Shown here one piece after another: positions 35,840 to 52,412 of a DNA stretch of 64,000 bases (the first letter of the stretch is position 1; the number at the start of each line of letters is the position of its first letter). The stretch lies in IMG/VR virus record IMGVR_UViG_3300045988_087221; one strand, given 5' to 3'. The translations under genes were made by a program, and so were the position numbers. Origin of the DNA: a virus. The notes beneath the pieces are model-generated. The model was given only the letters and a program-made list of their open reading frames with translations, was not told the origin of the DNA and did not search any database.

Positions 35840-35847
35840 TAATTTTG

Positions 35848-35937
35848 CATACGGAGTAGGATTCGAACCCACGTTGTTTAACTCTCGTCTCTATAGGTTT
35901 TGGAGACCTACCCTTTCGACCACTCAGGCATCCGTAC
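35848..35937 (-). tRNA. type II (Ser-like) tRNA with anticodon CCA
   Basis: Acceptor GTACGGA/TCCGTAT, G73, Ser-like D arm GCCTGAGTGGTCGAAAGGG, perfect anticodon stem TAGGT/ACCTA with loop CTCCAAA, 21-nt variable region, T GTGGG-TTCGAAT-CCTAC. Confidence 0.65.
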
Positions 35938-35941
35938 ATAG

Positions 35942-36014
35942 TGGAGATACGTGGAATCGAACCACAATCTCGGGATTTTCAGTCCCGCGCTCTGACCTTC
36001 TAAGCTATATCTCC
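35942..36014 (-). tRNA. tRNA-Phe (anticodon GAA)
   Basis: Acceptor GGAGATA/TATCTCC, anticodon arm CGGGA-CTGAAAA-TCCCG, T GTGGT-TCGATTC-CACG region. Confidence 0.9.
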
Positions 36015-36247
36015 ATAGCCCACATTTCTATAAGTAGAATAGTGGTAAGAACTTTGCCCAAATAGGCATAACACACTAACAAAATATGATTAATTACAAT
36101 AAATTCAAATTAAAGTGATAGCGTCTTCTCATATCATGGCTGGTGATTGTAGAAACTCTACATACATGAGGCACTAAGAGAATCATTTCTCTCCCGTTAC
36201 TTCCCAAATTTAGACCAAATCTCCATAATTAGATAGCTAACTAATTA

Positions 36248-36440
36248 CAAAAATTAAAGGATTCGAACCCCTGTTTCTATCACTATATTTAAAATAGTTA
36301 TACTGATTGCAGGCTGTTAATTAATTAGCTATCTTAACTAACAGTTATTTCATATTAATCTTACCTAAGTAAGCTTGCGCAATATTTTGAAACTAAACAC
36401 TTATTGCCTATCCATCACTCACAGCTGCTAGATAATTTAA
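36248..36440 (-). ncRNA. possible third expanded tRNA-like RNA (P3)
   Basis: T arm AGGGG-TTCGAAT-CCTTT, AT-only partial acceptor, D-like arm CTAGC..GATAG, several internal hairpins. The weakest member of the family. Confidence 0.3.
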
Positions 36441-36499
36441 TTGTGTCCTATACTTCCTCTGGGAGGAGAGTATCAATATAACTTAAAATAAATATCAAT

Positions 36500-36582
36500 T
36501 TAAAAAGAAAGTTTAGTGGACTTTGAGTGCTAGATATATTAAATAGTACATCCTAAATAATACTCTAGTTATCCACCAAACT
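36500..36582 (-). terminator. long imperfect hairpin plus U-tract (terminator or small RNA)
   Basis: 11-bp outer stem AGTTTGGTGGA/TCCACTAAACT, inner stem CTAGA/TCTAG, followed by TTCTTTTTA on the minus strand. Confidence 0.4.
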
Positions 36583-36597
36583 TATCTCTGAAGAAAC

Positions 36598-36626
36598 CTA
36601 CAACTATTTATCACAAACCATTGTAG
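36598..36626 (-). repeat. conserved-loop hairpin R4
   Basis: Stem ctacaa/ttgtag. The loop is identical to R3 (TGGTTTGTGATAAATAG). Confidence 0.6.
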
Positions 36627-36709
36627 AACAATATTTTGTCGACCTATTTTAATTCACAATTATTACAACTTGAAAATATTTTAAATATCTTTGTTGTAAC
36701 TTGTAGTTG

Positions 36710-36783
36710 TGCTCCCATCCAGATTCAAACTGGAAACCCACAGCTTAGAAGGCTGTTGCTCTATTCAGTTGAGCTATGGGAGC
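36710..36783 (-). tRNA. tRNA-Arg (anticodon TCT)
   Basis: Acceptor GCTCCCA/TGGGAGC, D GCTC..GAGC, anticodon arm ACAGC-CTTCTAA-GCTGT, T TCCAG-TTTGAAT-CTGGA. Confidence 0.9.
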
Positions 36784-36922
36784 TGCTAATAATTAGCCTT
36801 TTTTCATCAACCTTGCCAAGTGAACTAACTATATAGTCAGTTATTTAGAATTGGTAGTTAATAAATGTTAATTTATAATCAACACTTAAAAACTTACCAA
36901 TTCTTTTATAGGCATAGAATGA

Positions 36923-37375
36923 TTATAGGGAATTAATTTTCTTCTTTAATTCTTTCATCTCAGCTTTAATACCACTGAGCACTTGTTGATAATATTGATT
37001 AGTTATTTTAGAGACTGCATCTTCATCACAACAAGTAAGCCAATAACTAAGAGAATGTGTCCATAATCCATAAATATCACCTAAGAATACTTCACTAGGA
37101 TCCATAGTTGATATGTTTTTAGTTCTGAACATTCCATATCTATCTGGACATATTGCAGGATTCCATGCTAAATGCATTGCCCCTAATTGTCTATGAATTT
37201 TAAAAGTGTCTTCAAGAGTGTGATGAGACATCAATTCACCCTTAAATTTAGTCAGCTGAAGGATTTGATGTTCTATCACATGTTTTTTATCCTTCTTCTC
37301 CTGATTTTTTCGAGCCATAACTCCAACTATAATAAATATAATTAAAGCTAGTAAGGCTATTACTGTTATTACCAT
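36923..37375 (-). CDS. membrane-anchored protein (hypothetical)
   Basis: 150 aa with an N-terminal TM helix. Confidence 0.55.
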   Translation of the reverse strand: MVITVIALLALIIFIIVGVMARKNQEKKDKKHVIEHQILQLTKFKGELMSHHTLEDTFKIHRQLGAMHLAWNPAICPDRYGMFRTKNISTMDPSEVFLGDIYGLWTHSLSYWLTCCDEDAVSKITNQYYQQVLSGIKAEMKELKKKINSL

Positions 37376-37389
37376 AATCTAATTAATTA

Positions 37390-37719
37390 CTACAATAGAG
37401 GTGCTTCTCTATTTTGTTTATACTCATTTCCTATTAACCAATAATAAAGATACTTATAGTTATTAACTAATTCAATAATTGGATAGTTTCTAATATAAAT
37501 ATATTTATAATGGTCTATTACTAACTCGCACAAAGCCTTAGCTGGGTTAGTTTTGTATCTCTTCTTCCATTCCTTAGTACAGCATAAATAGTTAGTAGAC
37601 CAAGTATTGGTTTTTCTAACACTTATTCTATTCTTAGGAATTACTGGAAGGACACTATCATTAACCCAGAAATCTAAGGCTTCAATTAGTAATTTGAAAT
37701 TATCTTTATCGATAATCAT
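37390..37719 (-). CDS. hypothetical protein
   Basis: 109-aa ORF. Ends in a TAG TAA tandem stop. Confidence 0.5.
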   Translation of the reverse strand: MIIDKDNFKLLIEALDFWVNDSVLPVIPKNRISVRKTNTWSTNYLCCTKEWKKRYKTNPAKALCELVIDHYKYIYIRNYPIIELVNNYKYLYYWLIGNEYKQNREAPLL

Positions 37720-37875
37720 TCTTACTTAGTCATTTCGGAACCTACAATAGCTACAAATATTAATCCAAATACTATAGCCCAAACAATTCTAAGAAACTCC
37801 ATTATTCTTTACTTTTTAATACTAAAATAATAATAATAGGAATTGCTCCACAAATTATATTTAATAGTGTCATAA

Positions 37876-38274
37876 CTATTTGTCGTTAGTTAACTTGTAG
37901 ATATAATCCCAGATGTCTTGAGGAATATTGTTGCCTGTCTCATGCACATAATCCTTCATATGACACATATTGCCATCTTCAGCAGTCTTAATTACTGCTT
38001 CAGTGAAGAGCTTAATGTCCTTGAGATTTGGAGTAACAAGAGTAATCTTTGTTGAATCTGTAGCACCAATGCCAGTAATCAGACCCTCAAAAGCAGTAAG
38101 GTCGCCACTCTTAACCTTACCTTCAATAGCCTTACTAGTAATGTGAGCAGCCATCATAAGGACCTCCTTATCTTCATCAGTCTTGGTTACACTGACGCTC
38201 TCCATGATGTCGTTGTTAACTACCAATACGTTACTGAACAAACCAAAATCGTTTACTTTCTTTGTAAAATCCAT
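37876..38274 (-). CDS. hypothetical protein
   Basis: 132-aa ORF. Ends in TAG within TAGTTATG. Confidence 0.55.
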   Translation of the reverse strand: MDFTKKVNDFGLFSNVLVVNNDIMESVSVTKTDEDKEVLMMAAHITSKAIEGKVKSGDLTAFEGLITGIGATDSTKITLVTPNLKDIKLFTEAVIKTAEDGNMCHMKDYVHETGNNIPQDIWDYIYKLTNDK

Positions 38275-38425
38275 AATCTTATCTATTTAATTAATTATCT
38301 AAAAAATACATAAGTCTTGTCTTATGATTAACCAATTTACTTTCCAAGATGTCAACTATTTATTATACTCTATAGTACTAGAGTCCTATTTTATCTTTAT
38401 TCGTATTTCTATATAAATGTGTATA

Positions 38426-38656
38426 CTATTCAGGGCATTTTAAAGAACGTCCGTCTACTACACATGTCCCTTGTAAATCAGAGATTATATATTTAGATGG
38501 TTTATTATCTTCGTACTGAATAGCAGCTACGATACTAGAATCTATTGTCATAGTATCAGGCTTAATATCCACACCCATTAACATAGTCTCTAATTGTGCT
38601 GCAATCTTTTCTGCTTCTGCTGTTGTCATAGTTGTTCCATAATTAACAAGTCCCAC
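38426..38656 (-). CDS. hypothetical protein
   Basis: 76-aa ORF. Ends in TAG. Confidence 0.5.
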   Translation of the reverse strand: MGLVNYGTTMTTAEAEKIAAQLETMLMGVDIKPDTMTIDSSIVAAIQYEDNKPSKYIISDLQGTCVVDGRSLKCPE

Positions 38657-38752
38657 AACCTTACTAAATAGTAAAGACCTAACTAAACAATAATTAGTTA
38701 ACTAACTAAAGTCTAATTAGGTCTTTTTGATTATGGAACTTAACAGAAAAAA

Positions 38753-39262
38753 TTATTTCTTCTCATTATAGAGAAGATGCATAGCGTACTGTGCCTTCTC
38801 CATTACAAAGCCAAACAATGTACCAAATGTGTATGGCTTACGATGCCACTTCTTAGGAACATAAGCAAGTGCTTTCTCCAACTGGCACCACATATGAGCT
38901 GTAAACTCATCAAACTTTTCTTCTTCTGCTAACTTAATAGCTTCCTTCATTGCTTGATGTGATTTAAGCTCAAAGGTATCATCACAATCTCCCTTGGTAC
39001 GATATTCCCAAGAGTCTGCCTTACGCTCGCCACGCTCCTTAGCGTTAACAAGCTCATGCTCACATTTATCTATACGCTCTTTAAGCGCATAAATAATGTC
39101 ATCCTTAAACAAGTGCAACAACTCAACGTCATCAAACTCATGTGGCTTGTAATCACCATTTGAGTTCAAGATGATCTCAGTTCTTTGCACTCCGTTAGCT
39201 ACCTCTGTTTCGGTAGTCACTTTGACACCCTCAGATGTCCAAGAAAAAATTCCATTTTTCAT
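38753..39262 (-). CDS. hypothetical protein
   Basis: 169-aa ORF, less AT-rich than average. Confidence 0.6.
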   Translation of the reverse strand: MKNGIFSWTSEGVKVTTETEVANGVQRTEIILNSNGDYKPHEFDDVELLHLFKDDIIYALKERIDKCEHELVNAKERGERKADSWEYRTKGDCDDTFELKSHQAMKEAIKLAEEEKFDEFTAHMWCQLEKALAYVPKKWHRKPYTFGTLFGFVMEKAQYAMHLLYNEKK

Positions 39263-39476
39263 TGTTGTAAATCTAAAATTGTGAATCTATAAACAGACAT
39301 AGTGTCTGTCTTATTATAATTGTGAATTGATACCTAAATACAACCTAACTACACTTAATTAGACTAAAAACCATATTAAATTTTATGGCAAAATCCTTAC
39401 ATTAGTTTCAAAACTAGTAGGCTCACGACTTTTCTTAAACTGTTTCATTTTTTATTACTATTTATATTGTTAATAA

Positions 39477-39686
39477 CTAGGAATTAGCCCATTTAATAAG
39501 CCAATCCCAACCTGTATATTCCTTAAACAGTTCTTCGTTCATAAAGGTAGAACAAAGAACACAAAGGGCAAATGCCCCAAAGCCCATAAATGCTGCCACA
39601 AAGAGTGACATATGAGCAATGTAATCTATACCACATATGTAAATAATGATATAGAATGCTGTGAAGTAAAAATAAAATCTTTTCAT
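39477..39686 (-). CDS. small membrane protein (hypothetical)
   Basis: 69 aa with two hydrophobic helices. Ends in TAG. Confidence 0.5.
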   Translation of the reverse strand: MKRFYFYFTAFYIIIYICGIDYIAHMSLFVAAFMGFGAFALCVLCSTFMNEELFKEYTGWDWLIKWANS

Positions 39687-39720
39687 TTGTTAATGTGTTT
39701 AATTATTTTATTACTAGCTG

Positions 39721-40020
39721 TTAAATCGATACATTATTAGCTAATTTAAATAGAGCAATATCTACTTTAACAATAGACATCTTTCTAATTGAGAATTTCT
39801 CATTAATTACGAGAGACATCAACTTAAACATCTCTGGAGTATATTCTAATCCGGATTCTTTAATAAGCTGATTTACTGCGTAATTATGAGCCTTTCTATT
39901 AGCTATTGCTATATTACGATATTTAGCAGCATTAAATTTCCAGTTTCTATGTTCCTTCTCTTTTATCTTATTCTGATAAAACTGGAATACCTGAATAAGT
40001 GTTGAACTGCCTGTAATCAT
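39721..40020 (-). CDS. hypothetical protein
   Basis: 99-aa ORF. Confidence 0.5.
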   Translation of the reverse strand: MITGSSTLIQVFQFYQNKIKEKEHRNWKFNAAKYRNIAIANRKAHNYAVNQLIKESGLEYTPEMFKLMSLVINEKFSIRKMSIVKVDIALFKLANNVSI

Positions 40021-40104
40021 TTTCTGTTAAGTGTGTAATTAATTAAAGTGAGCAGTTTAAACTCATGCTCAGGAGCCTGTCTTAAAACTATGTGCGAATA
40101 TGAG

Positions 40105-40305
40105 TTACTTAACTAAACCTACATACATAGTAGTGTAATTATTAGCTACTGAATCCATTTCACTAATCTGATTAGCCTGCATAAGTACAGTCTTTCTCAG
40201 CTGCTTGTTAGCTGTGTGACAATTAACTAAATTAATTGACAATACAACTACTGCACTTACTAATACTAACATAATAAGTGCTGTTACTTTATTTACCTTA
40301 TTCAT
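40105..40305 (-). CDS. small membrane-anchored protein (hypothetical)
   Basis: 66 aa with an N-terminal TM helix. Confidence 0.5.
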   Translation of the reverse strand: MNKVNKVTALIMLVLVSAVVVLSINLVNCHTANKQLRKTVLMQANQISEMDSVANNYTTMYVGLVK

Positions 40306-40502
40306 ATTGTTAATGTGTATTAATTGTTTATAATACTAAATTTTCTGTAACTTATTTCTTTACAGTCATTGCATTCCAAAGAATTTTGTCACAGTTATAA
40401 TTAGTGTTCACCCATTGCTGAATCTCTCTGAGAACATTTTCAGAGTTAGATTCAATACTTAATTTGTATACCATAATTTTATTATTGTTAAATAGTTATT
40501 AA

Positions 40503-40895
40503 TTAATAATGAAACTCAAAGTAATATTTTTTACGAATACCCTCTGATAAAAAGAACTTAATGAGTGTTTTCACCTGTTCAAGTTCATAGTTAAGTGTCT
40601 CAAAATCATCAGTAGGTAATACTAATTTACCCTCATAAATAATAAGACACTTTACTACTTGATCACAAGTCATCATACGATTACTGTGATTATGTACTAC
40701 TTGTTCATACATTATGGAATCTTTAGCCTTTTCAGCAATATCCGCATAAGTGTTAAATACACCTTCTAACCAGTGAAACCATAACCCAAACTCTTTGGAA
40801 AGTTCTGGAGTACCAGTAAATGTACAATACTTACTGTCAAACTCCGCCAAATTAATTGGCTGTTTTGTTGTTGTGTTAATAATTTGAAACGTCAT
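40503..40895 (-). CDS. hypothetical protein
   Basis: 130-aa ORF. Confidence 0.55.
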   Translation of the reverse strand: MTFQIINTTTKQPINLAEFDSKYCTFTGTPELSKEFGLWFHWLEGVFNTYADIAEKAKDSIMYEQVVHNHSNRMMTCDQVVKCLIIYEGKLVLPTDDFETLNYELEQVKTLIKFFLSEGIRKKYYFEFHY

Positions 40896-40990
40896 AATTT
40901 ATTTAGTTAAAGAGTTAATAATTAGAACTCCAGTCAGGTTACAATCCTGATACAATGCTTTTATTTACTGGAGTTGTTTAAAGATGAGCT

Positions 40991-41572
40991 TTATCTTACG
41001 AATCCAGGTACAGAAACGATGAATCCGTTTTCTCTCTTGCAGTCTGGATGACCAGTAGCTGGTGCTACTAAATCCTTTCTGCGAAGATTAATGTGCTTTT
41101 CCTTTTCAACACTAAGCACCATTGCTGAAACAATGTACATTGTACCCCTCTTAGGTTCAGGAAGGTTTTCAACCTCCCCATAGAATACCTTTGCAATACC
41201 ACAGCAAAAGTTGGTAAAGCTATTGGCTACTCTAGCTATTTTACCTGATGCAGGATAGGTAGTTCCATCATTTAATTTGATATCATGTGGGGTGAGATTG
41301 ATGAACTCTGTGGGAAGTACATCGAAGTGTATCCCTTCTTCATTCATATCAAGGTCGTCACAACCTTCCTCATGATTATCCAAATGAATATCATAGTATA
41401 CTTTACCATTATATTCATAGGAACTTGTAATAGTTCCTAACTCGTTAGTACACTCTTCATCAGGAGCATAGCTAATTATGCGTGTGCCATTTTCTAAAAT
41501 TTTTTTCATTTTATTTATTGTTAATGTGTTATTCCAAATTTTATCTAGTTTTGGATTTACTAGTATAAACAT
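40991..41572 (-). CDS. hypothetical protein
   Basis: 193-aa ORF. About 700 nt of non-coding sequence lies upstream. Confidence 0.6.
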   Translation of the reverse strand: MFILVNPKLDKIWNNTLTINKMKKILENGTRIISYAPDEECTNELGTITSSYEYNGKVYYDIHLDNHEEGCDDLDMNEEGIHFDVLPTEFINLTPHDIKLNDGTTYPASGKIARVANSFTNFCCGIAKVFYGEVENLPEPKRGTMYIVSAMVLSVEKEKHINLRRKDLVAPATGHPDCKRENGFIVSVPGFVR

Positions 41573-42288
41573 TTAATTGTTCATAGATAGCTAATAACGT
41601 ACAACTGTTACTAACTATTTCGTCCAAGTCTCATCAGTATGAATTTTATAGTCTCCTTGGCTGACTAAACAATTTCTCTTACTCCTTGTTCAAGGGAAGC
41701 CTCTCTTTAAGCACTGAGGTTATTGCTTTAAAAATGTGTAGTTCTTCAACACTTACTATCTCCTACACTGATTTTCATTCAGCTTTCTTTTTGTATATTT
41801 GTAAAATATACTCAAATACTCTCAATGTGTTACGACTGCTTATCTACTTCTCATACAACTTAGCTTTATAATAATGTTAATTAATTATATATTAAGAAGC
41901 AACTCCACTCTAGATAAGTAAGTGAGCTGTGTTTTTTTACTTTAAACTTATTTTTAGTTTAACCGTCTAACTAAATAAAGGACTTAATGTTGTTTTAATT
42001 TTGTCATTTTTGTTTTTTCAAATAATACAAAGTAACAGCTCCCCATACACCAAATTGGCAAAATGGCAAATAAAGTGAAAGTACACTAAATGTGCCCTCC
42101 CACACATCTGCCGTTGCGCGCTTACCTCTCTAGTGTATCAGAGAGCTATGTTACTGTGTTTTATTTTTAATTTTGTTGTTAAATTTAGCTGTCTTTCCAG
42201 CTTGCCAGAATAAAAAATAGAAACATTGTTAACTAACTCTGTTGTTTTGTTGTTTATTGTTTTGTTGTGATTTTGTTGTTTACGACAG

Positions 42289-42477
42289 TTACAGTACCAC
42301 TCGTCGACTAATTCGATACCAACCGTCGTCTAAATCATGTAATTCAAAGTAGCCATATTGAGGATGAGGTGTAAATTGTCCACATAATGTAAACTCTCTA
42401 CCATCATCACTTACAAATGTACTACCTGAATAGGTTCCTTTAAGACAAATAACCTTTTTTGTTCTTATTTTTTTCAT
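42289..42477 (-). CDS. hypothetical protein
   Basis: 62-aa ORF preceded by a duplicated 20-bp motif. Confidence 0.5.
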   Translation of the reverse strand: MKKIRTKKVICLKGTYSGSTFVSDDGREFTLCGQFTPHPQYGYFELHDLDDGWYRISRRVVL

Positions 42478-42496
42478 ACACTAAAATAATTACATT

Positions 42497-42573
42497 ATCG
42501 GCACTTGCTTACAAATTTTAAAATATACACTAGTACAAAATGAACATTGTTTCATCGGCACTAGCTTACAAAT
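42497..42573 (-). promoter_or_regulatory. two 20-bp direct repeats (atcggcacNtgcttacaaat), candidate promoter or operator pair
   Basis: Copies at 42497-42516 and 42554-42573, 19/20 identical and 57 bp apart. Minus sense reads ATTTGTAAGC.AGTGCCGAT with a TTTG element. Confidence 0.4.
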
Positions 42574-42587
42574 GTAATAATTAATAA

Positions 42588-42605
42588 GTAGGGATTTCTC
42601 CCTAC
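42588..42605 (-). terminator. GTAGGGA-GAAA-TCCCTAC hairpin after 42614-43228
   Basis: Perfect 7-bp stem with a GAAA tetraloop, followed on the minus strand by a T-rich TTATTAATTATT. Confidence 0.5.
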
Positions 42606-42613
42606 CTATTAAT

Positions 42614-43228
42614 TTAGAGTGACCATACGTTCACTCTCATTACTCTGTGCGCTCCCTTTGCGTAGTCGAGATTTCCCTGAGATACCGCACGTGTTGCCAC
42701 GATTGGACGACAACCCTGAGCCACCAAAGTAAGCTCATTTGGGAGCTGCTTCTTTCCGGCTTTTACAGCCATAAACAGCTCTAAAACGTTACGGGTCTCT
42801 GCGTCAAAGAACTCAACATTTGCAGGGTCAAAGCCCTCAATATGTTGAGCTGTATGCTCTGTCTCTGTGCGAGATTTGCCCTCTTTTCCGTTGTCCTCTT
42901 TGAACGTGCCTTCCCACTTGTAACCGGCTAAGCTTGGCTTAATTAAGTTACGTAAGGAAATATTACGACCATCAGATAACTTAGCACCAAAGAAGGTGTT
43001 TTGTGGAACCTGTGCGCCATTTACATTTGCGTAAACGACCACAATCTCAACCTCACCTGTAAGGTGAATGGTCTCTCCAATAGTGAAACCATTACCGCCC
43101 TCTTGTCGAGATTGCATCTGTTTCCAGGCGTCATCAGTTAACTCGTTCAAACCTGCACTTTTGCGGATTTTATTCAATTCCTCAAACTGCTTTTTCAAAT
43201 CGGCTGCACTTGCTTTAAAATCTTTCAT
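42614..43228 (-). CDS. hypothetical protein, first gene of the minus-strand block, GC-rich outlier
   Basis: 204-aa ORF. Sampled 60-nt lines are 43-55% GC against about 15-37% elsewhere. Confidence 0.65.
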   Translation of the reverse strand: MKDFKASAADLKKQFEELNKIRKSAGLNELTDDAWKQMQSRQEGGNGFTIGETIHLTGEVEIVVVYANVNGAQVPQNTFFGAKLSDGRNISLRNLIKPSLAGYKWEGTFKEDNGKEGKSRTETEHTAQHIEGFDPANVEFFDAETRNVLELFMAVKAGKKQLPNELTLVAQGCRPIVATRAVSQGNLDYAKGAHRVMRVNVWSL

Positions 43229-43278
43229 AATTTCTAATTTTTTAAATTAATAATATGTTTCTTTTTTTATTCAAGTTT

Positions 43279-43288
43279 GAGGGGGGGA
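43279..43288 (+). repeat. G-tract element 1 (TGAGGGGGGGACTAAAGTGG)
   Basis: G7 run at 43281-43287 in an AT-rich spacer. Confidence 0.7.
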
Positions 43289-43349
43289 CTAAAGTGGGTG
43301 TCTACCGTAGCTTAAATAACTCTCTAAATTTTTAGCATTGGATTAAATT

Positions 43350-43360
43350 GGGGGGGGGGA
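43350..43360 (+). repeat. G-tract element 2 (TTGGGGGGGGGGAATTAAAATGG)
   Basis: G10 run at 43350-43359. The flanks resemble element 1. Confidence 0.7.
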
Positions 43361-43512
43361 ATTAAAATGGTGATTTTTGGCAATAATTTAGGTATAAAGT
43401 TCTAATTGTCACATTTTAAATTATTTTAACTTTTATATTTTCAACAATTAATCTATTGTAGAATGTGATTAAAAAAGAACTAAATTAAAACAATTTTAAA
43501 ATATTAATTAGT

Positions 43513-43911
43513 ATGGTTGAAAACTTGTTAGAAGGAATAATGACAAATGAAGAATTTCAAGAGCTTATGAAAGCTTCTGAAAATAACAAAGATTATAAAT
43601 TTAATAAAAATGGTTTAGATATTTCAATGAATAGTTCAGATAATGGTTTTGAACTTAGTGTTAAATACACTAATCCAGTACAATCTGAAGTAGAGAAGTT
43701 TACAGATTTCTTGAATGGTTTGGATGATGAGTTGTTTGTAGACATTTGTGAACAGATTGGTAATGATGGATTACAAAAGATTCAAAATTGTTTGGACTCA
43801 GAAAATATTGAATCTGTTCGTTCTGCTGTCTCTTATTTTAAAGCACATGCACGAAAATTCATTGCAGATAAAACTAACTATTTAAATGAGCAATTAGTTA
43901 AATTTAACTAA
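43513..43911 (+). CDS. hypothetical acidic protein
   Basis: 132-aa ORF in the standard code. First plus-strand gene. Confidence 0.6.
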   Translation: MVENLLEGIMTNEEFQELMKASENNKDYKFNKNGLDISMNSSDNGFELSVKYTNPVQSEVEKFTDFLNGLDDELFVDICEQIGNDGLQKIQNCLDSENIESVRSAVSYFKAHARKFIADKTNYLNEQLVKFN

Positions 43912-43927
43912 TAACTTAAACACACAT

Positions 43928-43955
43928 TTAGCTAGTTCCCTTGATAACTAGCTAA
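43928..43955 (+). other. 10-bp-stem hairpin immediately upstream of the suppressor tRNA
   Basis: ttagctagtt/aactagctaa with an 8-nt loop. Ends 3 nt before the tRNA 5' end. Confidence 0.55.
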
Positions 43956-43958
43956 TAT

Positions 43959-44030
43959 TCTCTTATGGTGTAATGGTCAGCACAGAAGACTCTAAATCTT
44001 TTAGTCAGGGTTCGAATCCTTGTGAGAGAA
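43959..44030 (+). tRNA. amber suppressor tRNA (anticodon CTA), Gln-like
   Basis: Canonical cloverleaf: acceptor TCTCTTA/TGAGAGA (U1:A72), D GTGT-AATGGTCA-GCAC, anticodon arm GAAGA-CTCTAAA-TCTTT, T CAGGG-TTCGAAT-CCTTG. The D arm is nearly identical to that of tRNA-Gln(TTG) at 35041-35111. Confidence 0.9.
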
Positions 44031-44055
44031 CAATTTAATTATAAAAATATGTATT

Positions 44056-44376
44056 ATGATTATTGCAATTTATAAACTAAATGACAAGCTGTTAAAAACA
44101 ACTAATTTAGAAAAGAAACTTAAAAAGTTGAAAAAGTCTAAATTAGATAGTAAAATACAAATTCTTTTCCAAGAGGATTATGAGGGGGATTTAAAAGAGG
44201 CTGAGAATTATTTAGATTACATAATTAAAAAGAACTATGTAATAGATGACAATGTAGATGATACTAGTAATGTGGTTTTCCATCATTATATTAATAGACA
44301 AACTGGTTATACACACACTAGTATATATGATAATGATATAAGAATAATAAATGAAGGTTATGAGCAAATTGACTAA
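44056..44376 (+). CDS. hypothetical protein
   Basis: 106-aa ORF in the standard code. Confidence 0.55.
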   Translation: MIIAIYKLNDKLLKTTNLEKKLKKLKKSKLDSKIQILFQEDYEGDLKEAENYLDYIIKKNYVIDDNVDDTSNVVFHHYINRQTGYTHTSIYDNDIRIINEGYEQID

Positions 44377-44536
44377 AAATTATAATATTTACGAAGACTA
44401 TTTAAATAGAAATGCTACGCTGTCTTTAAATAAAGCGGAGGAAACAGTAGATAAAGTATTAACAGAACCGTTTAAAAATAAGCAATGGTTTCTTAATTAT
44501 CTAGATGAATTAAATAAACAATCAGTAAGGTACTAA
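44351..44536 (+). CDS. hypothetical protein
   Basis: 61-aa ORF. Confidence 0.45.
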   Translation: MKVMSKLTKNYNIYEDYLNRNATLSLNKAEETVDKVLTEPFKNKQWFLNYLDELNKQSVRY

Positions 44537-44550
44537 TGTAATTCTAAATA

Positions 44551-44862
44551 ATGATTGATTATAAAGCAACTATTAAAAATATACACTCAGCATTGTCTGA
44601 TTTAAATATAGATGAATTATTAATTATACTTGATTGTATTAAAGAGATTCCTAGTTATAATAATTCTGTACACATTAATAGTGGAGGTTATACATATCCT
44701 AGTATGGATAATGTTCTGTTAAATTCAAAATTGAAATCTCCATCTGTTTCAGATACATTATATTCTTTGCAATTAGAAACAGACCATACTACATGTAATT
44801 CAGTAAATTGTACTAATGTAGCTAAGAAACGTGAAGATAATAAGATTAATGTTTCAATTTAA
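44551..44862 (+). CDS. hypothetical protein
   Basis: 103-aa ORF. Confidence 0.5.
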   Translation: MIDYKATIKNIHSALSDLNIDELLIILDCIKEIPSYNNSVHINSGGYTYPSMDNVLLNSKLKSPSVSDTLYSLQLETDHTTCNSVNCTNVAKKREDNKINVSI

Positions 44863-44884: not shown

Positions 44885-44920
44885 AAGGCGACCTAGCAAT
44901 TAAGCTAAGCCGCCTTTTAT
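44885..44920. terminator. bidirectional hairpin terminator between convergent units
   Basis: AAGGCG/CGCCTT outer stem with inner TAGC/GCTA stem, followed by TTTTATT. Confidence 0.55.
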
Positions 44921-45151
44921 TGTATCTATTAATTACTATAATTAATTATTTTCTCCATATACTAGTTATACTATCTATACCTAGTAGTCCCATACAACAA
45001 TATAAAACTGTATCTATCATATTAGGAGCTTGTATCTAACTAATAGAACAGTATATTAGAATAATTAAACTAACTACCCATCCTAATATTCCACATACTC
45101 TTTTACTACTTACTCCGGTATGCGCTGTTATTAATTTAATTAAAAACTATT

Positions 45152-47086
45152 TCATTTCTAAGAACTATTTAAGAATGGTAAACTCATACCTATAGGTGCT
45201 GCTACTCTAAATATATTAGGATCTGACCAATTTCTAGGAATACGTAAATCATAAGGTAGTAAAGATTTAACATTGGATTTATTCCAATTAGGTACGGCAA
45301 AATAAGTATAATCATCATGTTCATCTCTTAATGGGCTATTTGGATTAGATTTAAGTAATCCCTACTATTTTTTCTAAGCATCCTTTAAAATATAGTCATA
45401 ATGTTCTGCCATAGCATTTCTCTCATTAGTAGGATTTAATGGACCATGATAATTTACTTTACTGCCTCCCTTTATTAACCAATCATCATTAAGTACACTT
45501 ATTTCTTTAGAAGCGTCTCTAACAGCTGGAGTTCTAACTACAAAAGCATTAATATTATTAGTTTTTGATTCAGAATATTTTGCTGGAAGTTTATATACTG
45601 CATTATCTCCAAATCGTGTGGGGTAAGTTACTAAAGGTTTAGCATCTTTAGGAATTACCTAACTGATTTCAGTGTGATATTTACCATCACCACCTAAAAC
45701 TTTTGCTCCTGTACCACTACCAATTAATTTTGAGTGACCATTAAATTCCTAACCCCTTACTAAATATCTTTCTAATCCCATGCTGTTCTGTCCCGTTCCT
45801 GGTAATTCCCCTAGAAATAGTGTTCCTAAAGAATTATCCATAGTTCCAGATTTAGTAGCTAAGTCAGTAGGAGAAGGATGGTCTTTTAGCTAAGTATAAG
45901 CTTTTGTATCTCCTCTAAATAAAAGCTATGGTTCTCCTTGACTATTTACAGCAGCGCTGCCTTTACCAAGTTCGTTAGTATGTTTATATAAAGCCTAAGC
46001 TATTTCTTCATCAGAGATATTAGGGTTATCCATTAAGCCATAACGTTCTCTAGCTTCCATTACATATTTACGTAACTAGTCTCCATTAAGACTTCCTTCA
46101 GGAATCGGAGTTCCTCCATATTCTTTAAACATTTTTACAGCATCTTCACCCTATAGGTAATGATTTAAAGGTTTCTAAAATATCCCTACTTCAACAGGTT
46201 CTTTAGTTCCCTTCATAGTAAGTTGTCTAGTTCCATTCTAGATAAATCCAAAGTCTTTACCAAATCTATTTATACCATGAATGCCTCCTTTAGATACAGA
46301 ACCCCAAGTAGAGAGATTAGCACCTTCAGGTACTTCATCTGCAACTTTAGCAAATAACTACATTTTATTACCATAGTTTAAACCATTTCTATCTGTTTTA
46401 AAATGGACTGAATAATTATTAGGTTCAACGTCCTTTACTAATTCAAATCTTTGATTAGGCTATTGTTTAAAGAAATAAGAAGTAGCTTCATTTCCTTCAG
46501 CTTTTCCAGTATTCCAAGCTTTTCTAGTAGGTTTATAATAAGATAACTGCATAATAGGATTATCACCTGTTGTATATTCTTTAGCAGCTAAGTTATTAGT
46601 AATTCCTTGAGATACATTTTTAGTTAAATTTCCAGCAGTCTCATTAAGTAAACTATTTCTAGCCCAATGTGAAACTGCATTCTAACCCATCTTAGAAAGA
46701 GCCATTTTACCTAAACCTAATCCTAAATTTCCTGCAGCAGTTCCTACTATAAATTCTCCTACTGGATCGGCTCCTGACATAGCCCCTGCTTGAGGATTAG
46801 TACTAGTTTTAGTATTTCCCTACTAATCCTTTACTGTAACCACCTCACTATGAGGCATACTCCTCTTAGCTAAAGCTGTCCTTTCTTTAACTGATAAATT
46901 ATTATATTTAGCTTTTAAATTTTTAGCAGCAGGCTATAATCTATTTTTTAAATTAGTAGGATTAAGAGTACCCGCAGATTGAGCGTTTCTAGTTATTTCC
47001 TAATCCTACTTAGATTGTTGCCAAGGTAATCCAGTGGTTTTAAAATTTAATTTACCTGCTTTCTAATATTTAGGTATCCATTTCAT
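45152..47086 (-). CDS. large hypothetical protein (644 aa), TAG-recoded
   Basis: The ATG-to-TGA span is 1935 nt (645 codons) with no TAA or TGA but many in-frame TAG. No ORF of 60 aa or more exists here in the standard code. Confidence 0.65.
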
Positions 47087-47199
47087 ATCTTTTCACACAG
47101 TTTTAATAAGGAATCTCGAGTAATCTCAGAATATGATATTTCTACGGGGTGTTCTATTCTCCATAGTAATCCTTTTCCAGTTTTAATTACTTGTTTCAT
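47083..47199 (-). CDS. small hypothetical protein (38 aa)
   Basis: ATGA overlap with the downstream 644-aa gene. No TAG. Confidence 0.35.
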   Translation of the reverse strand: MKQVIKTGKGLLWRIEHPVEISYSEITRDSLLKLCEKI

Positions 47200-47296
47200 A
47201 TCTTCTTAAATATTTATTCCATAACTACTTATCTCTCTCATCTACAAAATCTAAAAATTCTTGTAGTTCGTCTAGTTGTATATTTATATCTCTCAT
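47183..47296 (-). CDS. small hypothetical protein (37 aa if TAG is read through, 23 aa otherwise)
   Basis: ATGA overlap with the upstream 379-aa gene. One in-frame TAG. Confidence 0.3.
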
Positions 47297-48432
47297 ACCT
47301 AGTTAATATTCTAATTATATATTTGAGCGATTGGATTTAAACCCTATTGTTTATTCCACTAATTAATAATCTATTTATCTCTATTTCTTCCTCTATTCAT
47401 TTCTACATTATAGAAGGCAGGTCTTGTATTATAGTTCTTCTATTTCAATCCCTATTTAAACTGTCCAAAGTTCTATACATTCTATAAATTTCTATATCTA
47501 CCATTAGTTAAACTATCAGTCGCATTCTTAGTCCATCCACCCAAGTTGGAAGCCCTTCTTCCGAATGAATAATATTTTCCAGGTCTGCCATCTTCTATCA
47601 TAGATAAGTGTGAAGTGTCGAAAGCAGCTTGTTGTGGAATACCCTAATTAACTAAGGAGATATATCTTTGTAGCACTTGAGGCTATGAATTATTAATCTG
47701 AAAATTTCCACCCTACTAATGTTTTTTAATTGTATTAGGATAAATTTTTATCTAATCGTAAGTATTATCTATATAGTTTCCCTATTTAGGAGTTACAGTA
47801 ATTTCAGGCAGTACAACTCCACCTTTATAAATCATAGTGGTCTAACCATCCTAGTTACCGTCTGCAGTTCCAAATAATGTAAGATTTGGATTTTGCATTC
47901 CGAAATCAGTTAAATAGAATTTAGTTCCTGATTTATTAAATCTACCTCTAGAAGGATGCGTTGGATGATTACTTAATTTTACAATATCATCATAATGTCC
48001 TGCATCATTGGGTTTTAACTAAGATAATAATTTATTATTAACATTATTATAATTTCCATTTCCATATTTTACTTGATTAGGAAAATACCGAGTTGTATTA
48101 GCTAATGCTCCTGTAGTAAAATTACCGCCCTACTAATATGTAAGAGGATGATTCTTCTTTAAGTCTTTTGTCTTAAACCATCCATTATCTAATATTGATC
48201 TATGACCATTTGGCTTATGTACTTCACCACCATCTTCATGTTTCCATTTCTTTGCATTCTAAGCAAATATGGCTCTTTTTCTAGTTAGAGGGTTTTTACT
48301 ATGTGTTAATTCTTCAGTAGTTTTACCTGTTCTCTTTTTAGTCTCAGTAAATTTCCCTCTATTTTCTTTTTTAATGTGTATTCCCGAACCTTTAGCTAGA
48401 TAAGGGATACCAAATATTTCTAAATCTTCCAT
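47293..48432 (-). CDS. hypothetical protein (379 aa), TAG-recoded
   Basis: 1140-nt frame from ATG to TGA, open only with TAG as sense. Repeated (Y/H)QQGGNF motif in which both Q are TAG. Confidence 0.65.
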
Positions 48433-50048: not shown

Positions 50049-50654
50049 ATGACTATGGATTTTAGAAGTGAATTAAATGGAAAAGAGAAAGTAGCTCAAT
50101 CACTTATCGGTATGGAAAGTACAGGAACTCCTATTGTAGTTAATGGACAAAGAGCAGATGTTATTTTAGCTAATGAAAAGAAGTCTAAATTTAATACTAG
50201 AGTAGATGAATATGTAGATAAATTTGAAAAACACAATAAAGCACTTGAGGACTATGCTAAGGAAATCTCAAAGGACATCAATGGTTTAGAGATATTACCA
50301 ATGGGTTCTTATGCATTGATTAAACCCTTTGAGGAGAATCCTTTCCAAAAGGTAACAGTAGAGAGTGGAATTATTACAGACTTGGGTGGATTTACTCCTC
50401 AATATAAGAGTGAAGAGGATGGTCAAATTCATGAATTAGAACAGTTTATTCGTGTTGGTACTGTAATTGAAACCGGATTCAAATGCGAGTTCTTAAAAGA
50501 GGGTGATGTAGTATTCTTTACTAAAGCTAGTGAAGCTACTGTTCCATTTTTCAAGCAAGGATTTGTAGTAGTTAATGAATCGCGAATTATGGCAATAGTT
50601 AATGAGAAATTAACAGAAAGAAAGAATCAAATTAAAGATAATGGAAACAAGTAA
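50049..50654 (+). CDS. GroES/gp31-like co-chaperonin domain protein
   Basis: The C-terminal half follows the Cpn10 pattern: LIKPFEE...ESGIITD...VGTVIETG...LKEGDVVFF...VVVNESRIMAIVNE. Last gene in the standard code. Confidence 0.4.
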   Translation: MTMDFRSELNGKEKVAQSLIGMESTGTPIVVNGQRADVILANEKKSKFNTRVDEYVDKFEKHNKALEDYAKEISKDINGLEILPMGSYALIKPFEENPFQKVTVESGIITDLGGFTPQYKSEEDGQIHELEQFIRVGTVIETGFKCEFLKEGDVVFFTKASEATVPFFKQGFVVVNESRIMAIVNEKLTERKNQIKDNGNK

Positions 50655-50664
50655 TAAAGTTTAC

Positions 50665-50850
50665 ATGCAGCCGGGAGATGTAGTTTAGTTACGTTAGCGT
50701 GACAAAATGCATTGTCCGGCTATGCTTGTTATTAGAAAAGAGCAAGCATTATTTAAAGATGAAATGAAAGGATTGAGATGTAGATGGTTTACTGACTCAG
50801 GTTTAATGCAGGAAGCAGTATTCAACACTAAGGATCTAATACTTGTATAA
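50665..50850 (+). CDS. DUF2158 (YodC)-like small protein, TAG-recoded
   Basis: 61 aa with 2 in-frame TAG. GDVV(Q)L...PAMLV...CRWF...EAVF pattern. Confidence 0.55.
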
Positions 50851-50852
50851 TT

Positions 50853-52412
50853 ATGGCATGGAAAACAGTTAATGCAGCATAGTCAACAGATGCTCAAAGT
50901 CAAAATGCTTTTAGAAGATTTTCTAATATACTTATGTCACATCGAAATGCTAATGGTAATATTTAGTATAATCCCCAAGATAAATCTTACCGATTAGTAA
51001 ATGATAATGGAATATTTTATTCTAATGGCAGATTCTTTTCTAGATCTGGAGCAAAGGGTAATTATGACATAAATACAGGAAATTTTTTAAAGAAAAAAGT
51101 AAATAAACCAGCTACTTCTGTAAAATAGTAGTCCTCTACTGGATCCAAAGATATAGTATCCTAGGTGACTAATCCTAACTACTTATATGGTTATAAAGAG
51201 TAGGTAAATAAATAGAACAAAATTCCTATGAATTCTCCTGCTATTAACAAATCAAGAACTACATTAGCTCCAAAAACTTCTACATCTAATTCATGGATTA
51301 ATAAGAGTAGAGGAATATGGAATTATAATGGAGTATCCCAAGCAGATGTAGCAAATGCTTATAAGACGGGAGATTTCAGTAAAGTAGGAAGTTACTTGTC
51401 TCAACATAGAGATTTAGCTAGTTATTTAAATAATATTTATAGTAAGAGGGGAGGCAACTAGTTTAATTCATCTACACCAACTTAGCAAGCAACTCCTATT
51501 AAAGGAACTCCCGGATATGGCATTCATGTTGGAAATGGTAGTGTAACTTTATCTACTCCAAATGGCTCAACTACAGATATAACTAATTCTCATAATGTAT
51601 CTACCTTAATTAATAATGGTAATTATAAAGCACCTAATTTAGGAGGTATGACTACTAATTATTTAGAAAGTAGACCATTAAATAGTTATTCAGAACTTAC
51701 TAAGCATAATTTTGATAGAGGTGATATTAGATAGGGTATGAAAGCAAATGGGATAAATCCCTATGATTATTCAGGTTCAGATAGAAAATAGTTAAGAACA
51801 TATTTAAATAATCCTACAACTGATAACTATACTCAATCTGTAAGTAAAATTATAGGAGATGGTAAAATCTAGTAGAATATGTTAAATAATGCTGTTCAGA
51901 ACTAGACTAATTAGTATCAATTAACTAAACCTAATTTAGGATATAATCCAAATTAGAATAATTAGTTAGTTAATTTAAAATTTAAACAAGGAGGATAGAT
52001 GTATAAATACGCAGCAGGAGCACAAATGGTACAACCACAATAGGCAAGTGGACAATAGGGAATGGAATAGTAGGCAATAGCTTTAGTTTAGGCAGCTATG
52101 TAGGGTGACTAGCAAGCTAACTAGACTATTTAGAAAATTATGTAGGCAGCACAACAAGGTGATTAGCAAGCAGTTCAGGTAGCTAAGTTACTACAAGCTA
52201 TTGCTCAGCAAATGAAGGGATCTCGTAAAGCAAGACTCGGTGCTAAGTTAGATTATATTAAATAGTCTATTGGAGAATGCCCTGAAGGTCAAGAAGTAGT
52301 ATATTTTAAAAAGGGAGGAGAAATCTGTAAAATATGTGCAGGTAAAAAGATGCAAGATGGGGGAAAATCTGACCCTATTAAAAACTTTAAGAAAAAGAAA
52401 AAGATGAAATAA
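50853..52412 (+). CDS. hypothetical protein (519 aa) with Gln-rich helical region and C-terminal CxxG..CxxC motif, TAG-recoded
   Basis: Track ORF 51228-51461 lies in the same frame (offset 375). Continuous only with TAG as sense. Ends in TAA. Confidence 0.6.

What the first reader, a model, noticed from the sequence alone, without database searches (positions are those of the whole stretch)
43959..44030. Gln-like amber suppressor tRNA at the head of the plus-strand block
This is a fully canonical 72-nt cloverleaf with anticodon loop CUCUAAA (anticodon CUA). Its D arm (GTGT-AATGGTCA-GCAC) differs by a single inserted base from the phage tRNA-Gln(UUG) at 35041-35111. Both tRNAs have the unusual U1:A72 first pair. 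In E. coli a weak 1:72 pair together with U35 are GlnRS identity elements, and supE is a tRNA-Gln with anticodon CUA. This supports TAG being read as Gln. The gene sits about 450 nt downstream of the divergent control region, among standard-code genes and upstream of the recoded genes. That placement would suit a timer that licenses late-gene translation.
Basis: partly seen in the sequence, partly recalled or inferred. Interest (0 to 1): 0.85.

Follow-up and report, generated by a model that had tools for sequence, protein, structure and literature searches.

The report
Phage amber suppressor tRNA (Gln type)
This is a real phage tRNA gene that reads the stop codon TAG as glutamine, so the phage can translate its TAG-filled late (virion) genes; the trick is genuine but already well documented for crAss-like gut phages.

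Summary
ARAGORN and Rfam both call a 72-nt tRNA with anticodon CUA at 43959-44030(+). Orthologues in related phages show compensatory changes at 11 of 22 stem pairs.

The window comes from a very common ~190 kb crAss-like gut phage that resembles the Zeta group. Its late genes are full of in-frame TAG: 198 TAG, 58% of presumptive Gln codons. In the early minus-strand block, 14 of 71 ORFs still end in TAG.

Three lines of evidence say TAG means Gln:
- Conserved Gln columns in diverse TerL homologues.
- CAA at those columns in standard-code relatives.
- 59 of 83 TAG-polymorphic sites among close strains are TAG<->CAG/CAA.

The tRNA body is Gln-type. Its D-arm motif occurs in tRNA-Gln in 118 of 125 cellular matches, mostly Bacteroidales.

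The "timer" idea is the published model (Borges et al.). It fits the layout but cannot be tested here. The tRNA sits in a small TAG-free cassette, not directly at the head of the late block. No release factor or aaRS gene was found in the ORFs scanned.

Verdict: correct but already known, and of low novelty.

The parts
43959..44030 (+). Amber suppressor tRNA, anticodon CUA, Gln-type body. 72 nt including discriminator A73; CCA is not encoded.
   Evidence: ARAGORN. Rfam RF00005 at 63.3 bits. Covariation in orthologues. D-arm isotype test.
43928..43955 (+). 10-bp hairpin (TTAGCTAGTT-N8-AACTAGCTAA) that ends 3 nt before the tRNA 5' end. Its role is unknown; it could be a terminator for the upstream ORF, a processing signal or a regulatory signal.
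   Evidence: Terminator-like scan. Unique in the window, with 0 matches expected by chance. The core GCTAGTT..AACTAGC is conserved upstream of the orthologous tRNA in L012 and L046 and, in a variant form (GCTAGT..ACTAGC), in L015; it is absent in the L016, L025, L026 and L034 lineages.
43229..43512 (.). AT-rich divergent intergenic region between the leftward early block and the rightward cassette that carries the tRNA.
   Evidence: ORF maps. Sigma-70-like sites are not enriched over shuffles, 20 against 14.8+/-3.7.
43513..44862 (+). Small rightward cassette of four TAG-free ORFs (132, 106, 61 and 103 aa) with the tRNA between the first and second ORF. The ORF functions are unknown.
   Evidence: 0 TAG in these ORFs. 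No PHROG hits.
44885..44916 (-). Strong 13-bp GC-rich hairpin between the cassette and the convergent minus-strand genes. It is a likely terminator, possibly bidirectional.
44946..48432 (-). Three minus-strand recoded genes (69, 644 and 379 aa) with 2, 22 and 21 in-frame TAG, convergent on the tRNA cassette. Function unknown.
   Evidence: No PHROG or Pfam hits for the 644- and 379-aa products.
50641..64000 (+). Recoded late (virion) block. It includes TerL at 53006-55366 (18 TAG) and portal at 55558-57729 (38 TAG).
   Evidence: (PHROG terminase 1e-66, portal 5e-46).
31776..32921 (-). Isolated recoded gene (12 in-frame TAG) inside the otherwise standard-code early block, next to a YkuD L,D-transpeptidase-domain gene.
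   Evidence: No Pfam hit for the gene itself.
35041..35111 (-). Phage tRNA-Gln(UUG), a paralogue-like relative of the suppressor with the same D arm minus one base.
1..43228 (-). Early block in standard code. 14 of 71 ORFs of at least 60 aa end in TAG, so here TAG is still used as a stop.
   Evidence: Backup stops after TAG are not closer than after TAA/TGA (median 6 against 9 codons, p=0.24).

Best explanation
The gene encodes a functional amber suppressor tRNA derived from a Bacteroidales-type tRNA-Gln, carried by a ~190 kb crAss-like phage.

**Proposed mechanism.**
1. The tRNA is transcribed, then matured by host enzymes. The CCA end must be added, because it is not encoded.
2. It is charged with glutamine, most likely by the host GlnRS. 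U35 and the weak U1:A72 pair are retained.
3. At UAG it competes with release factor 1, so the roughly 200 in-frame TAG codons in the late genes are read as Gln. These genes include terminase, portal and other virion genes, plus three minus-strand genes next to the tRNA.
4. Early genes contain no internal TAG and can be translated by the unmodified host.

**What is shown and what is inferred.**
- Shown here: the tRNA is real and under selection; TAG sits at Gln positions; the tRNA body is Gln-type; the genome uses TAG in two ways.
- Inferred: charging by GlnRS, competition with RF1, and any timing role.
For: **The tRNA is real and under selection.**
-.
- A CUA tRNA was found on the TerL strand, 5.4-9.3 kb upstream of TerL, in 40 of the 51 IMG/VR relatives fetched: every one with TerL at least 72% identical to the query. 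The exceptions were short contigs (TerL 68-70%) and more distant relatives (46-56%).
- 11 of 22 stem pairs show compensatory double changes. U1 and the CUA anticodon are invariant.

**TAG means Gln.**
- TerL TAG site 451 aligns with Q in 67 of 80 diverse homologues, and site 682 with Q in 50 of 80.
- The Gln substitution profile fits the TAG columns best, with Glu a close second.
- Standard-code relatives have CAA at site 451 (L001 and crAssphage cr1_1).
- 41 of 74 TAG columns across 17 TerL genes also contain CAA or CAG, more than for any other residue.
- Among 15 close strains, 59 of 83 distinct TAG-polymorphic sites are TAG<->CAG (41) or TAG<->CAA (18). The alternatives are AAG 5, GAG 2, TCG 2, TGG 2.

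**The tRNA body is Gln-type.**
- The D-arm motif ATGGTGTAATGGT(N)AGCAC lies in tRNA-Gln in 118 of 125 cellular matches, mostly Bacteroidales.
- The tRNA is up to 79% identical to Bacteroidota tRNA-Gln. The best tRNA-His (which shares the D-arm motif) reaches 75%, and all other isotypes in the same loci reach at most 65%.
- U1:A72, U3:A70 and A73 match the commonest state of those tRNA-Gln.

**Dual code in one genome.**
- 198 TAG make up 58% of Gln codons in the recoded genes.
- There are 0 TAG in the ORFs around the tRNA.
- 14 of 71 early ORFs stop at TAG.

**Literature.**
- The same arrangement is described for crAss-like phages (PMC7886860).
- TAG->Gln was proven by LC-MS/MS in two crAss-like phages (PMC9523058).
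Against: - No expression, charging or proteomic data exist for this phage.
- The window clade has C2:G71. The Bacteroidales-type tRNA-Gln sampled have G2:C71 in 94 of 119 cases, and the E. coli GlnRS identity set includes G2:C71 and G3:C70 (established knowledge). Efficient charging by GlnRS is therefore not guaranteed.
- A36 instead of G36 also weakens GlnRS recognition in E. coli (established knowledge for supE).
- At several TerL TAG columns, Glu or Asp dominates in distant homologues. The distant-homologue test alone separates Gln from Glu only weakly (log-likelihood -2.77 against -2.81).
- Many database homologues were themselves translated with TAG=Q. Part of the protein-level signal could therefore be circular. 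The codon-level tests are free of this problem.
Confidence: 0.88

Rival explanations
1. Timer or licensing switch. The suppressor is expressed from an early or middle TAG-free cassette, and its accumulation sets the moment when TAG-containing virion and lysis genes can be translated. This is an added function on top of plain decoding.
For: - The tRNA lies in a TAG-free cassette beside the divergent intergenic region.
- In-frame TAG is confined to virion-type genes and a few others.
- The tRNA keeps its position upstream of TerL across relatives.
- This is the published model for recoded phages (bioRxiv 10.1101/2021.08.26.457843).
Against: - Nothing here measures time.
- No promoter can be assigned. 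Sigma-70-like sites are not enriched, and the scan does not cover other promoter types.
- The tRNA is separated from the late block by a terminator-like hairpin and by convergent genes, so co-regulation is not implied.
- TAG makes up 58% of Gln codons in nearly all late genes. That pattern fits a general code change as well as a tuned switch.
Confidence: 0.4
2. The suppressor inserts an amino acid other than Gln. Candidates are Lys, since LysRS also reads U35, or Glu through a non-discriminating GluRS without amidation.
For: - Glu and Asp dominate some TerL TAG columns in distant homologues.
- The tRNA has C2:G71 rather than the usual G2:C71.
- Amber suppressors in E. coli are often mischarged with Gln or Lys (established knowledge).
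Against: - Close-strain polymorphisms are TAG<->CAG/CAA at 59 of 83 sites. The corresponding counts are 7 for Lys codons and 4 for Glu codons.
- The conserved Q columns 451 and 682.
- The Gln-type tRNA body.
Confidence: 0.05
3. The tRNA mainly serves to sabotage the host (read-through of host TAG stops), or is a relic, and is not the decoder of the phage genes. This was proposed for Zeta crAss-like phages that carry a CTA suppressor without amber recoding.
For: Such phages exist (PMC12386605). The window also carries a tmRNA gene, which could relate to read-through stress.
Against: - This phage has about 200 in-frame TAG in essential genes and no other canonical CUA tRNA in the window.
- The tRNA is conserved with compensatory changes.
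- The two roles are not mutually exclusive.
Confidence: 0.04
4. It is a pyrrolysine tRNA, which is the label ARAGORN gives it.
For: Only the CUA anticodon.
Against: - The cloverleaf is canonical: an 8-nt D loop with GG, a T loop UUCGAAU and a 5-bp anticodon stem. tRNA-Pyl is known for a compact, atypical structure (established knowledge).
- The D arm is a tRNA-Gln hallmark.
- No Pyl-related domain appeared in the ORFs scanned.
Confidence: 0.01

Closest known systems
Phage-encoded TAG suppressor tRNAs of crAss-like phages (Crassvirales) that use genetic code 15 in late genes (Yutin et al. 2021, PMC7886860; Borges et al., bioRxiv 10.1101/2021.08.26.457843; Peters et al. 2022, PMC9523058)
   Same: - crAss-like TerL and portal.
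- In-frame TAG confined mostly to late genes.
- Early genes in standard code.
- A phage CUA tRNA, with TAG inferred to mean Gln.
   Different: Nothing essential differs. This lineage is only 25% identical in TerL to the named Crassvirales in the phage collection, and it is absent from that collection as a complete record.
E. coli supE (glnV44), a tRNA-Gln with anticodon CUA
   Same: A tRNA-Gln body with a G36->A36-type anticodon change; U1:A72; U35; G10. It reads UAG as Gln in competition with RF1.
   Different: - Only the D arm and general features are shared; this is not the E. coli tRNA sequence.
- C2:G71 and U3:A70 replace G2:C71 and G3:C70.
- The discriminator is A73, not G73.
- The tRNA is phage-borne and serves a genome-wide code change rather than leaky suppression.
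'Code change module' of Jade phages: suppressor tRNA + TrpRS + RF1 upstream of the lysis cassette (bioRxiv 10.1101/2021.08.26.457843)
   Same: The suppressor is encoded in a standard-code segment upstream of recoded late genes.
   Different: - No aaRS or release-factor gene was found in the window ORFs scanned.
- The recoding here is TAG->Gln, not TGA->Trp.
Zeta crAss-like phages that carry a CTA suppressor without amber recoding (for example Lera; PMC12386605)
   Same: A large crAss-like genome with many tRNAs and a CTA suppressor.
   Different: Here amber recoding is massive (198 TAG in the recoded genes), so the tRNA has an evident decoding job.

Membership tests
tRNA (Rfam RF00005) | Full-length match to the covariance model above the gathering score, with a cloverleaf structure. 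| tested here: met
   63.3 bits against 29, model positions 1-71 of 71. ARAGORN agrees.
tRNA (Rfam RF00005) | Stems maintained by compensatory change in orthologues. | tested here: met
   11 of 22 pairs have both sides changed with the pair kept, over 9 distinct orthologues.
Gln-type amber suppressor tRNA (supE-like) | Anticodon CUA in a 7-nt loop, with U33 and a purine at position 37. | tested here: met
   The loop is CUCUAAA. CUA is invariant in the orthologues.
Gln-type amber suppressor tRNA (supE-like) | A tRNA body derived from tRNA-Gln. | tested here: met
   The D-arm motif is found in tRNA-Gln in 118 of 125 cellular matches. Best identity is 79% to tRNA-Gln, 75% to the best tRNA-His (which shares the D-arm motif), and at most 65% to other isotypes.
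Gln-type amber suppressor tRNA (supE-like) | Weak 1:72 pair, U35 and G10 (part of the E. coli GlnRS identity set; established knowledge). | tested here: met
   U1:A72, U35 and G10 are read from the sequence. U1 is invariant in the orthologues.
Gln-type amber suppressor tRNA (supE-like) | G2:C71 and G3:C70 (part of the E. coli GlnRS identity set; established knowledge). | tested here: not met
   This tRNA has C2:G71 and U3:A70. The cellular Gln sample has G2:C71 in 94 of 119 cases, but position 3:70 is variable there and U:A is the commonest state.
Gln-type amber suppressor tRNA (supE-like) | The tRNA is aminoacylated with Gln. | not testable with these tools
   This needs charging assays or proteomics. 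The indirect codon evidence favours Gln.
Code-15 (TAG->Gln) late-gene recoding in Crassvirales | crAss-like hallmark genes (TerL, portal). | tested here: met
   PHROG terminase 1.4e-66 and portal 4.8e-46. tblastn hits to Crassvirales TerL.
Code-15 (TAG->Gln) late-gene recoding in Crassvirales | In-frame TAG in hallmark late genes, with ORFs restored when TAG is read as sense. | tested here: met
   Total residues in ORFs of at least 100 aa rise from 11,499 to 20,006. TerL has 18 TAG and portal 38.
Code-15 (TAG->Gln) late-gene recoding in Crassvirales | TAG sites correspond to Gln in relatives. | tested here: met
Code-15 (TAG->Gln) late-gene recoding in Crassvirales | Early genes remain compatible with the standard code. 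| tested here: met
   Early ORFs have no internal TAG, and 14 of 71 end in TAG.
tRNA-Pyl | The atypical compact tRNA-Pyl architecture, with Pyl biosynthesis and charging genes. | tested here: not met
   The cloverleaf is canonical. No such domains were found in the ORFs scanned. Only part of the genome is in the window.

The most novel reading that the evidence does not exclude
The suppressor could be a deliberately tuned switch rather than a plain decoder. In this reading, two features limit how fast functional Gln-tRNA(CUA) accumulates:
- the conserved hairpin that ends 3 nt before the tRNA 5' end (43928-43955), which could gate transcription read-through or 5' maturation;
- the clade-specific loss of the G2:C71 pair typical of host tRNA-Gln, which could slow charging.

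Together they would set the delay before TAG-rich virion and lysis genes can be translated.
Probability: 0.1. Interest if true: 0.6.

Novelty: already known. Interest (0 to 1): 0.2.

Why it matters
The finding confirms that this window must be annotated with TAG read as Gln in its late genes. Otherwise terminase, portal and other virion genes fall apart into fragments.

It also adds a clean population-genetic argument for the Gln assignment in a very prevalent gut phage lineage: TAG<->CAG/CAA exchange among strains.

It does not open a new question. The code change, the suppressor tRNA and the timing hypothesis are all in the literature. The assignment to Gln has been proven by proteomics in related phages.

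Tried and rejected
- **tRNA-Pyl (the ARAGORN label).** Rejected on structure and on the D-arm isotype.
- **A second suppressor at 30954-31027(-).** ARAGORN gives the anticodon as 'ct', and the loop CACUAA contains CUA. It is a 6-nt loop. Close relatives have CAUUAA, or a 7-nt loop CACCUAA that looks like Arg CCU. It is not an amber suppressor.
- **Weak tRNA-like hits at 35269-35340 and 33240-33344.** These have a His-like GUG anticodon and a 33-nt insertion respectively. Neither is a CUA tRNA.
- **A copy in the window of the second, minus-strand suppressor seen in relatives.** None was found.
- **Function of the ORFs flanking the tRNA.** No PHROG hits for the ORFs next to the tRNA (43513-44862 and 42614-43228); further downstream, 48556-49470 matches an exonuclease and 50049-50654 GroES.
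- **Release factor or aaRS genes in the window.** None were found in 50 ORFs scanned.
- **Sigma-70 promoter scan around the tRNA.** No enrichment, 20 sites against 14.8+/-3.7 in shuffles.
- **'Backup stop' selection after early TAG stops.** Not significant, median 6 against 9 codons, p=0.24.
- **Megablast of the late region against complete phage records.** Only a 210-bp match.
- **Cluster look-up for accession numbers or names of the TerL protein.** None were returned.
- **First protein search.** It returned only near-identical proteins already translated with TAG=Q, so it was useless for the Gln test. It was replaced by the representative search and by codon-level tests.

Full report
**Observation**

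ARAGORN finds 12 RNA genes in the window. One is a tRNA with anticodon CTA at 43959-44031(+). ARAGORN labels it 'tRNA-Pyl' only because of that anticodon.

Rfam's tRNA model matches 43959-44030(+) over its full length at 63.3 bits. The gathering score is 29, and E=2e-11 for the whole window.

The cloverleaf read from the sequence is canonical:
- A 7-bp acceptor stem UCUCUUA/UGAGAGA, with U1:A72, C2:G71, U3:A70 and one U.G wobble.
- A D arm GUGU-AAUGGUCA-GCAC.
- An anticodon arm GAAGA-CUCUAAA-UCUUU.
- A variable loop UAGU.
- A T arm CAGGG-UUCGAAU-CCUUG.
- Discriminator A73, with no encoded CCA.

The D arm differs by one inserted C from the phage tRNA-Gln(UUG) at 35041-35111(-). Both tRNAs start with U1:A72.

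The free energy of the fold is no better than that of shuffled sequence, z = -0.43. The case for a real tRNA rests on the covariance model and on comparative data.

**What the window is**

- GC content is 31%. Reading TAG as sense raises the total residues in ORFs of at least 100 aa from 11,499 to 20,006.
- The ORFs restored in this way include a terminase large subunit (53006-55366, 18 TAG; PHROG 1.4e-66) and a portal protein (55558-57729, 38 TAG; PHROG 4.8e-46).
- TerL is 21-27% identical to TerL of named Crassvirales and of Flavobacterium phages. It is 43-47% identical to two unannotated human faecal phage scaffolds.
- Near-identical TerL proteins occur on contigs of up to ~190 kb in very many metagenomes. 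One sequence is indexed in 1260 blocks of the collection.
- Those database proteins are already translated with TAG=Q.
- Size, tRNA richness and recoding fit the large-genome family of crAss-like phages described by Yutin et al. (PMC7886860). They also fit the Zeta group as treated in PMC12386605. I did not place the phage phylogenetically.

**Two uses of TAG in one genome**

- In the recoded genes, TAG accounts for 198 of 339 presumptive Gln codons (58%). These genes are 50641-64000(+), 44946-48432(-) and 31776-32921(-).
- The plus-strand ORFs around the tRNA contain no TAG.
- In the leftward early block (1-43228), 14 of 71 ORFs of at least 60 aa end in TAG.
- The next TAA/TGA after these TAG stops is not significantly closer than after TAA/TGA stops: median 6 against 9 codons, p=0.24.

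**Is TAG read as Gln?**

Protein level:
- I aligned the X-masked TerL with 80 full-length representatives, drawn from clusters at 50% identity.
- The residues at the 18 TAG columns are best explained by the Gln substitution profile, with Glu a close second.
- Two columns are strongly conserved. Site 451 has Q in 67 of 80 homologues, and site 682 has Q in 50 of 80.

Codon level, which is free of the circularity of databases that already translate TAG as Q:
- Site 451 is CAA in an uninterrupted TerL with no in-frame stop (L001) and in crAssphage cr1_1. It is TAG in another recoded relative.
- Across 17 TerL genes at 46-97% identity, 41 of 74 columns that hold a TAG also hold CAA or CAG. No other residue co-occurs as often.
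- Among 15 strains of the same species-level cluster, 83 distinct sites in 11 late genes differ by a TAG. Of these, 41 are TAG<->CAG and 18 are TAG<->CAA. The alternatives are AAG 5, GAG 2, TCG 2, TGG 2, TAC 1 and TAA 1.
- The frequent two-step TAG<->CAA exchange is hard to explain unless TAG, CAG and CAA are synonymous.

**Is the tRNA of Gln origin?**

- I scanned one genome per bacterial and archaeal species for the D-arm motif ATGGTGTAATGGT(N)AGCAC.
- Of the 125 motif copies, 118 lie in tRNA-Gln (84 UUG, 34 CUG). Five lie in tRNA-His and two in no called tRNA.
- The suppressor is up to 79% identical to these tRNA-Gln, for example in Paludibacteraceae and Carboxylicivirga, including the T arm and variable loop. 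The best tRNA-His, which also carries the motif, reaches 75%. All other isotypes in the same loci reach at most 65%.
- U1:A72, U3:A70 and A73 are the commonest states in that tRNA-Gln sample. G2:C71 (94 of 119) is replaced by C2:G71 in the window clade.
- G2:C71 and G3:C70 belong to the E. coli GlnRS identity set (established knowledge), so this is a real caveat for efficient charging. However, the strain-level Gln evidence comes from exactly this clade.

**Conservation**

- Of 51 IMG/VR loci that encode a TerL relative, 40 carry a CUA tRNA on the TerL strand, 5.4-9.3 kb upstream of TerL. These are all the loci with TerL at least 72% identical to the query.
- The loci without one are short contigs (TerL 68-70%) and more distant relatives (46-56% TerL), which have none within 10 kb upstream.
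- Ten sequence variants exist. Over nine of them, 11 of 22 stem pairs show compensatory double changes. U1 and the CUA anticodon are invariant.

**Placement**

- The tRNA lies 447 nt from the divergent intergenic region (43229-43512). It sits between the first and second ORF of a small TAG-free plus-strand cassette (43513-44862).
- The cassette is followed by a strong hairpin (44885-44916), then by convergent minus-strand recoded genes (44946-48432). Next come TAG-free plus-strand genes: an exonuclease (PHROG 2.9e-25) at 48556-49470 and a GroES-like protein at 50049-50654. The recoded late block starts only at ~50641.
- 'Head of the plus-strand block' is therefore only loosely right.
- A 10-bp hairpin (43928-43955) ends 3 nt before the tRNA. 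It is unique in the window. It is conserved (in variant form in L015) upstream of three diverged orthologue lineages and absent in others. Its role is unknown.
- No release factor or aminoacyl-tRNA synthetase domain was found in the 50 window ORFs scanned.

**Mechanism and rivals**

Best explanation (confidence 0.88): a phage-borne, tRNA-Gln-derived amber suppressor. After host processing, CCA addition and charging, probably by the host GlnRS, it reads the in-frame UAG codons of late genes as Gln in competition with RF1.

- Shown: the tRNA is real and constrained, it is of Gln origin, and TAG occupies Gln positions.
- Inferred: which enzyme charges it, and the competition with RF1.

The timer idea fits the layout and matches the published model (bioRxiv 10.1101/2021.08.26.457843). 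In that model, expression of the tRNA from a standard-code segment licenses late translation. Nothing here measures time, so I give it about 0.4.

Other rivals are unlikely:
- Another amino acid being inserted (0.05).
- A host-sabotage or relic role without decoding (0.04).
- tRNA-Pyl (0.01).

**Comparison with what is known, and novelty**

- Suppressor tRNAs and TAG->Gln or TGA->Trp reassignment, mostly in late genes, are described for crAss-like phages (PMC7886860).
- The regulatory model is in Borges et al. (bioRxiv 10.1101/2021.08.26.457843).
- LC-MS/MS has shown Gln at TAG in two crAss-like phages (PMC9523058).
- Zeta-group phages with CTA suppressors are catalogued (PMC12386605).
- This lineage is already in IMG/VR and in protein databases with code-15 gene calls.

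The finding is correct and useful for annotation, but it is already known. I score interest at 0.2.

Noticed in passing
L016-L052 (relatives with ~72-74% TerL identity), for example L016:1597-1667(-) and L016:1697-1890(-): Relatives of the ~72-74% TerL clade carry a second, unrelated U1:A72 tRNA on the opposite strand, about 2.4 kb upstream of the main suppressor. In L016 and L026, the two loci where a match was found, it lies directly 3' of a RAGATH-14 RNA. Its anticodon varies between strains:
- CUA in most strains.
- UUA (ochre) in L018 and L047.
- CUG (Gln) in L049.
- Aberrant loops in L022, L023 and L037.

This is a natural Gln<->amber<->ochre anticodon series. The TerL gene of L047 contains no in-frame TAA (L018 was not checked). 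The window has no copy of this tRNA.
   Followed up: partly
window 41581-41667 (-): A RAGATH-1 hammerhead ribozyme at 80.8 bits against a gathering score of 56.3. It lies about 2.3 kb upstream of the suppressor. This is roughly the position where relatives have RAGATH-14 plus the second tRNA.
   Followed up: no
window 14098-14433 (-): A phage-encoded tmRNA with tag peptide GEVNNTSASYAIAA, found by ARAGORN and by Rfam (51 bits against a gathering score of 47). It could be relevant to ribosome rescue when host TAG stops are read through.
   Followed up: no
window 30954-31027 (-): A tRNA at 47.9 bits with a 6-nt anticodon loop CACUAA. Close relatives have CAUUAA, or a 7-nt loop CACCUAA that looks like Arg CCU but with A33. 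The loop length is unstable between strains, so this may be a decaying or unconventional tRNA.
   Followed up: partly
window 33240-33344 (-), 35269-35340 (-), 35848-35937 (-), 35754-35839 (-): Unusual tRNA-like genes within the tRNA array:
- One has a 33-nt insertion in the anticodon loop (33 bits).
- One is a weak His-like (GUG) tRNA with a poor acceptor stem (35.7 bits).
- The tRNA-Trp (~90 nt) and tRNA-Lys calls are over-long, which suggests introns or insertions.
   Followed up: partly
window 4229-6688 (-), 6710-8050 (-), 226-1359 (-): Auxiliary genes that are unusual for a phage:
- A full-length P-type cation-transporting ATPase (819 aa).
- Two TerD-domain proteins.
- An adenylosuccinate synthetase.
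   Followed up: no
window 31187-32921 (-): A lone heavily recoded gene (12 TAG, no family hit) sits inside the standard-code early block. It lies beside a YkuD_2 L,D-transpeptidase-domain gene that contains no TAG. It may be a cell-wall or lysis-related pair written in two codes.
   Followed up: partly
L182-L186, and L006-L014 compared with window 44000-53000: The segment between the suppressor and TerL varies by more than 2 kb among near-identical strains. HNH endonuclease ORFs come and go. The minus-strand recoded genes differ greatly in called length: 240+42+69 aa, against 644+379+69 aa in the window.
   Followed up: no
L002 (MT835539.1) 20001-24353: The TerL of this relative matches in three separate pieces, spaced by about 1.1 kb each. 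This suggests introns or inteins in the gene. It also carries TAG at TerL sites 451 and 726.
   Followed up: no
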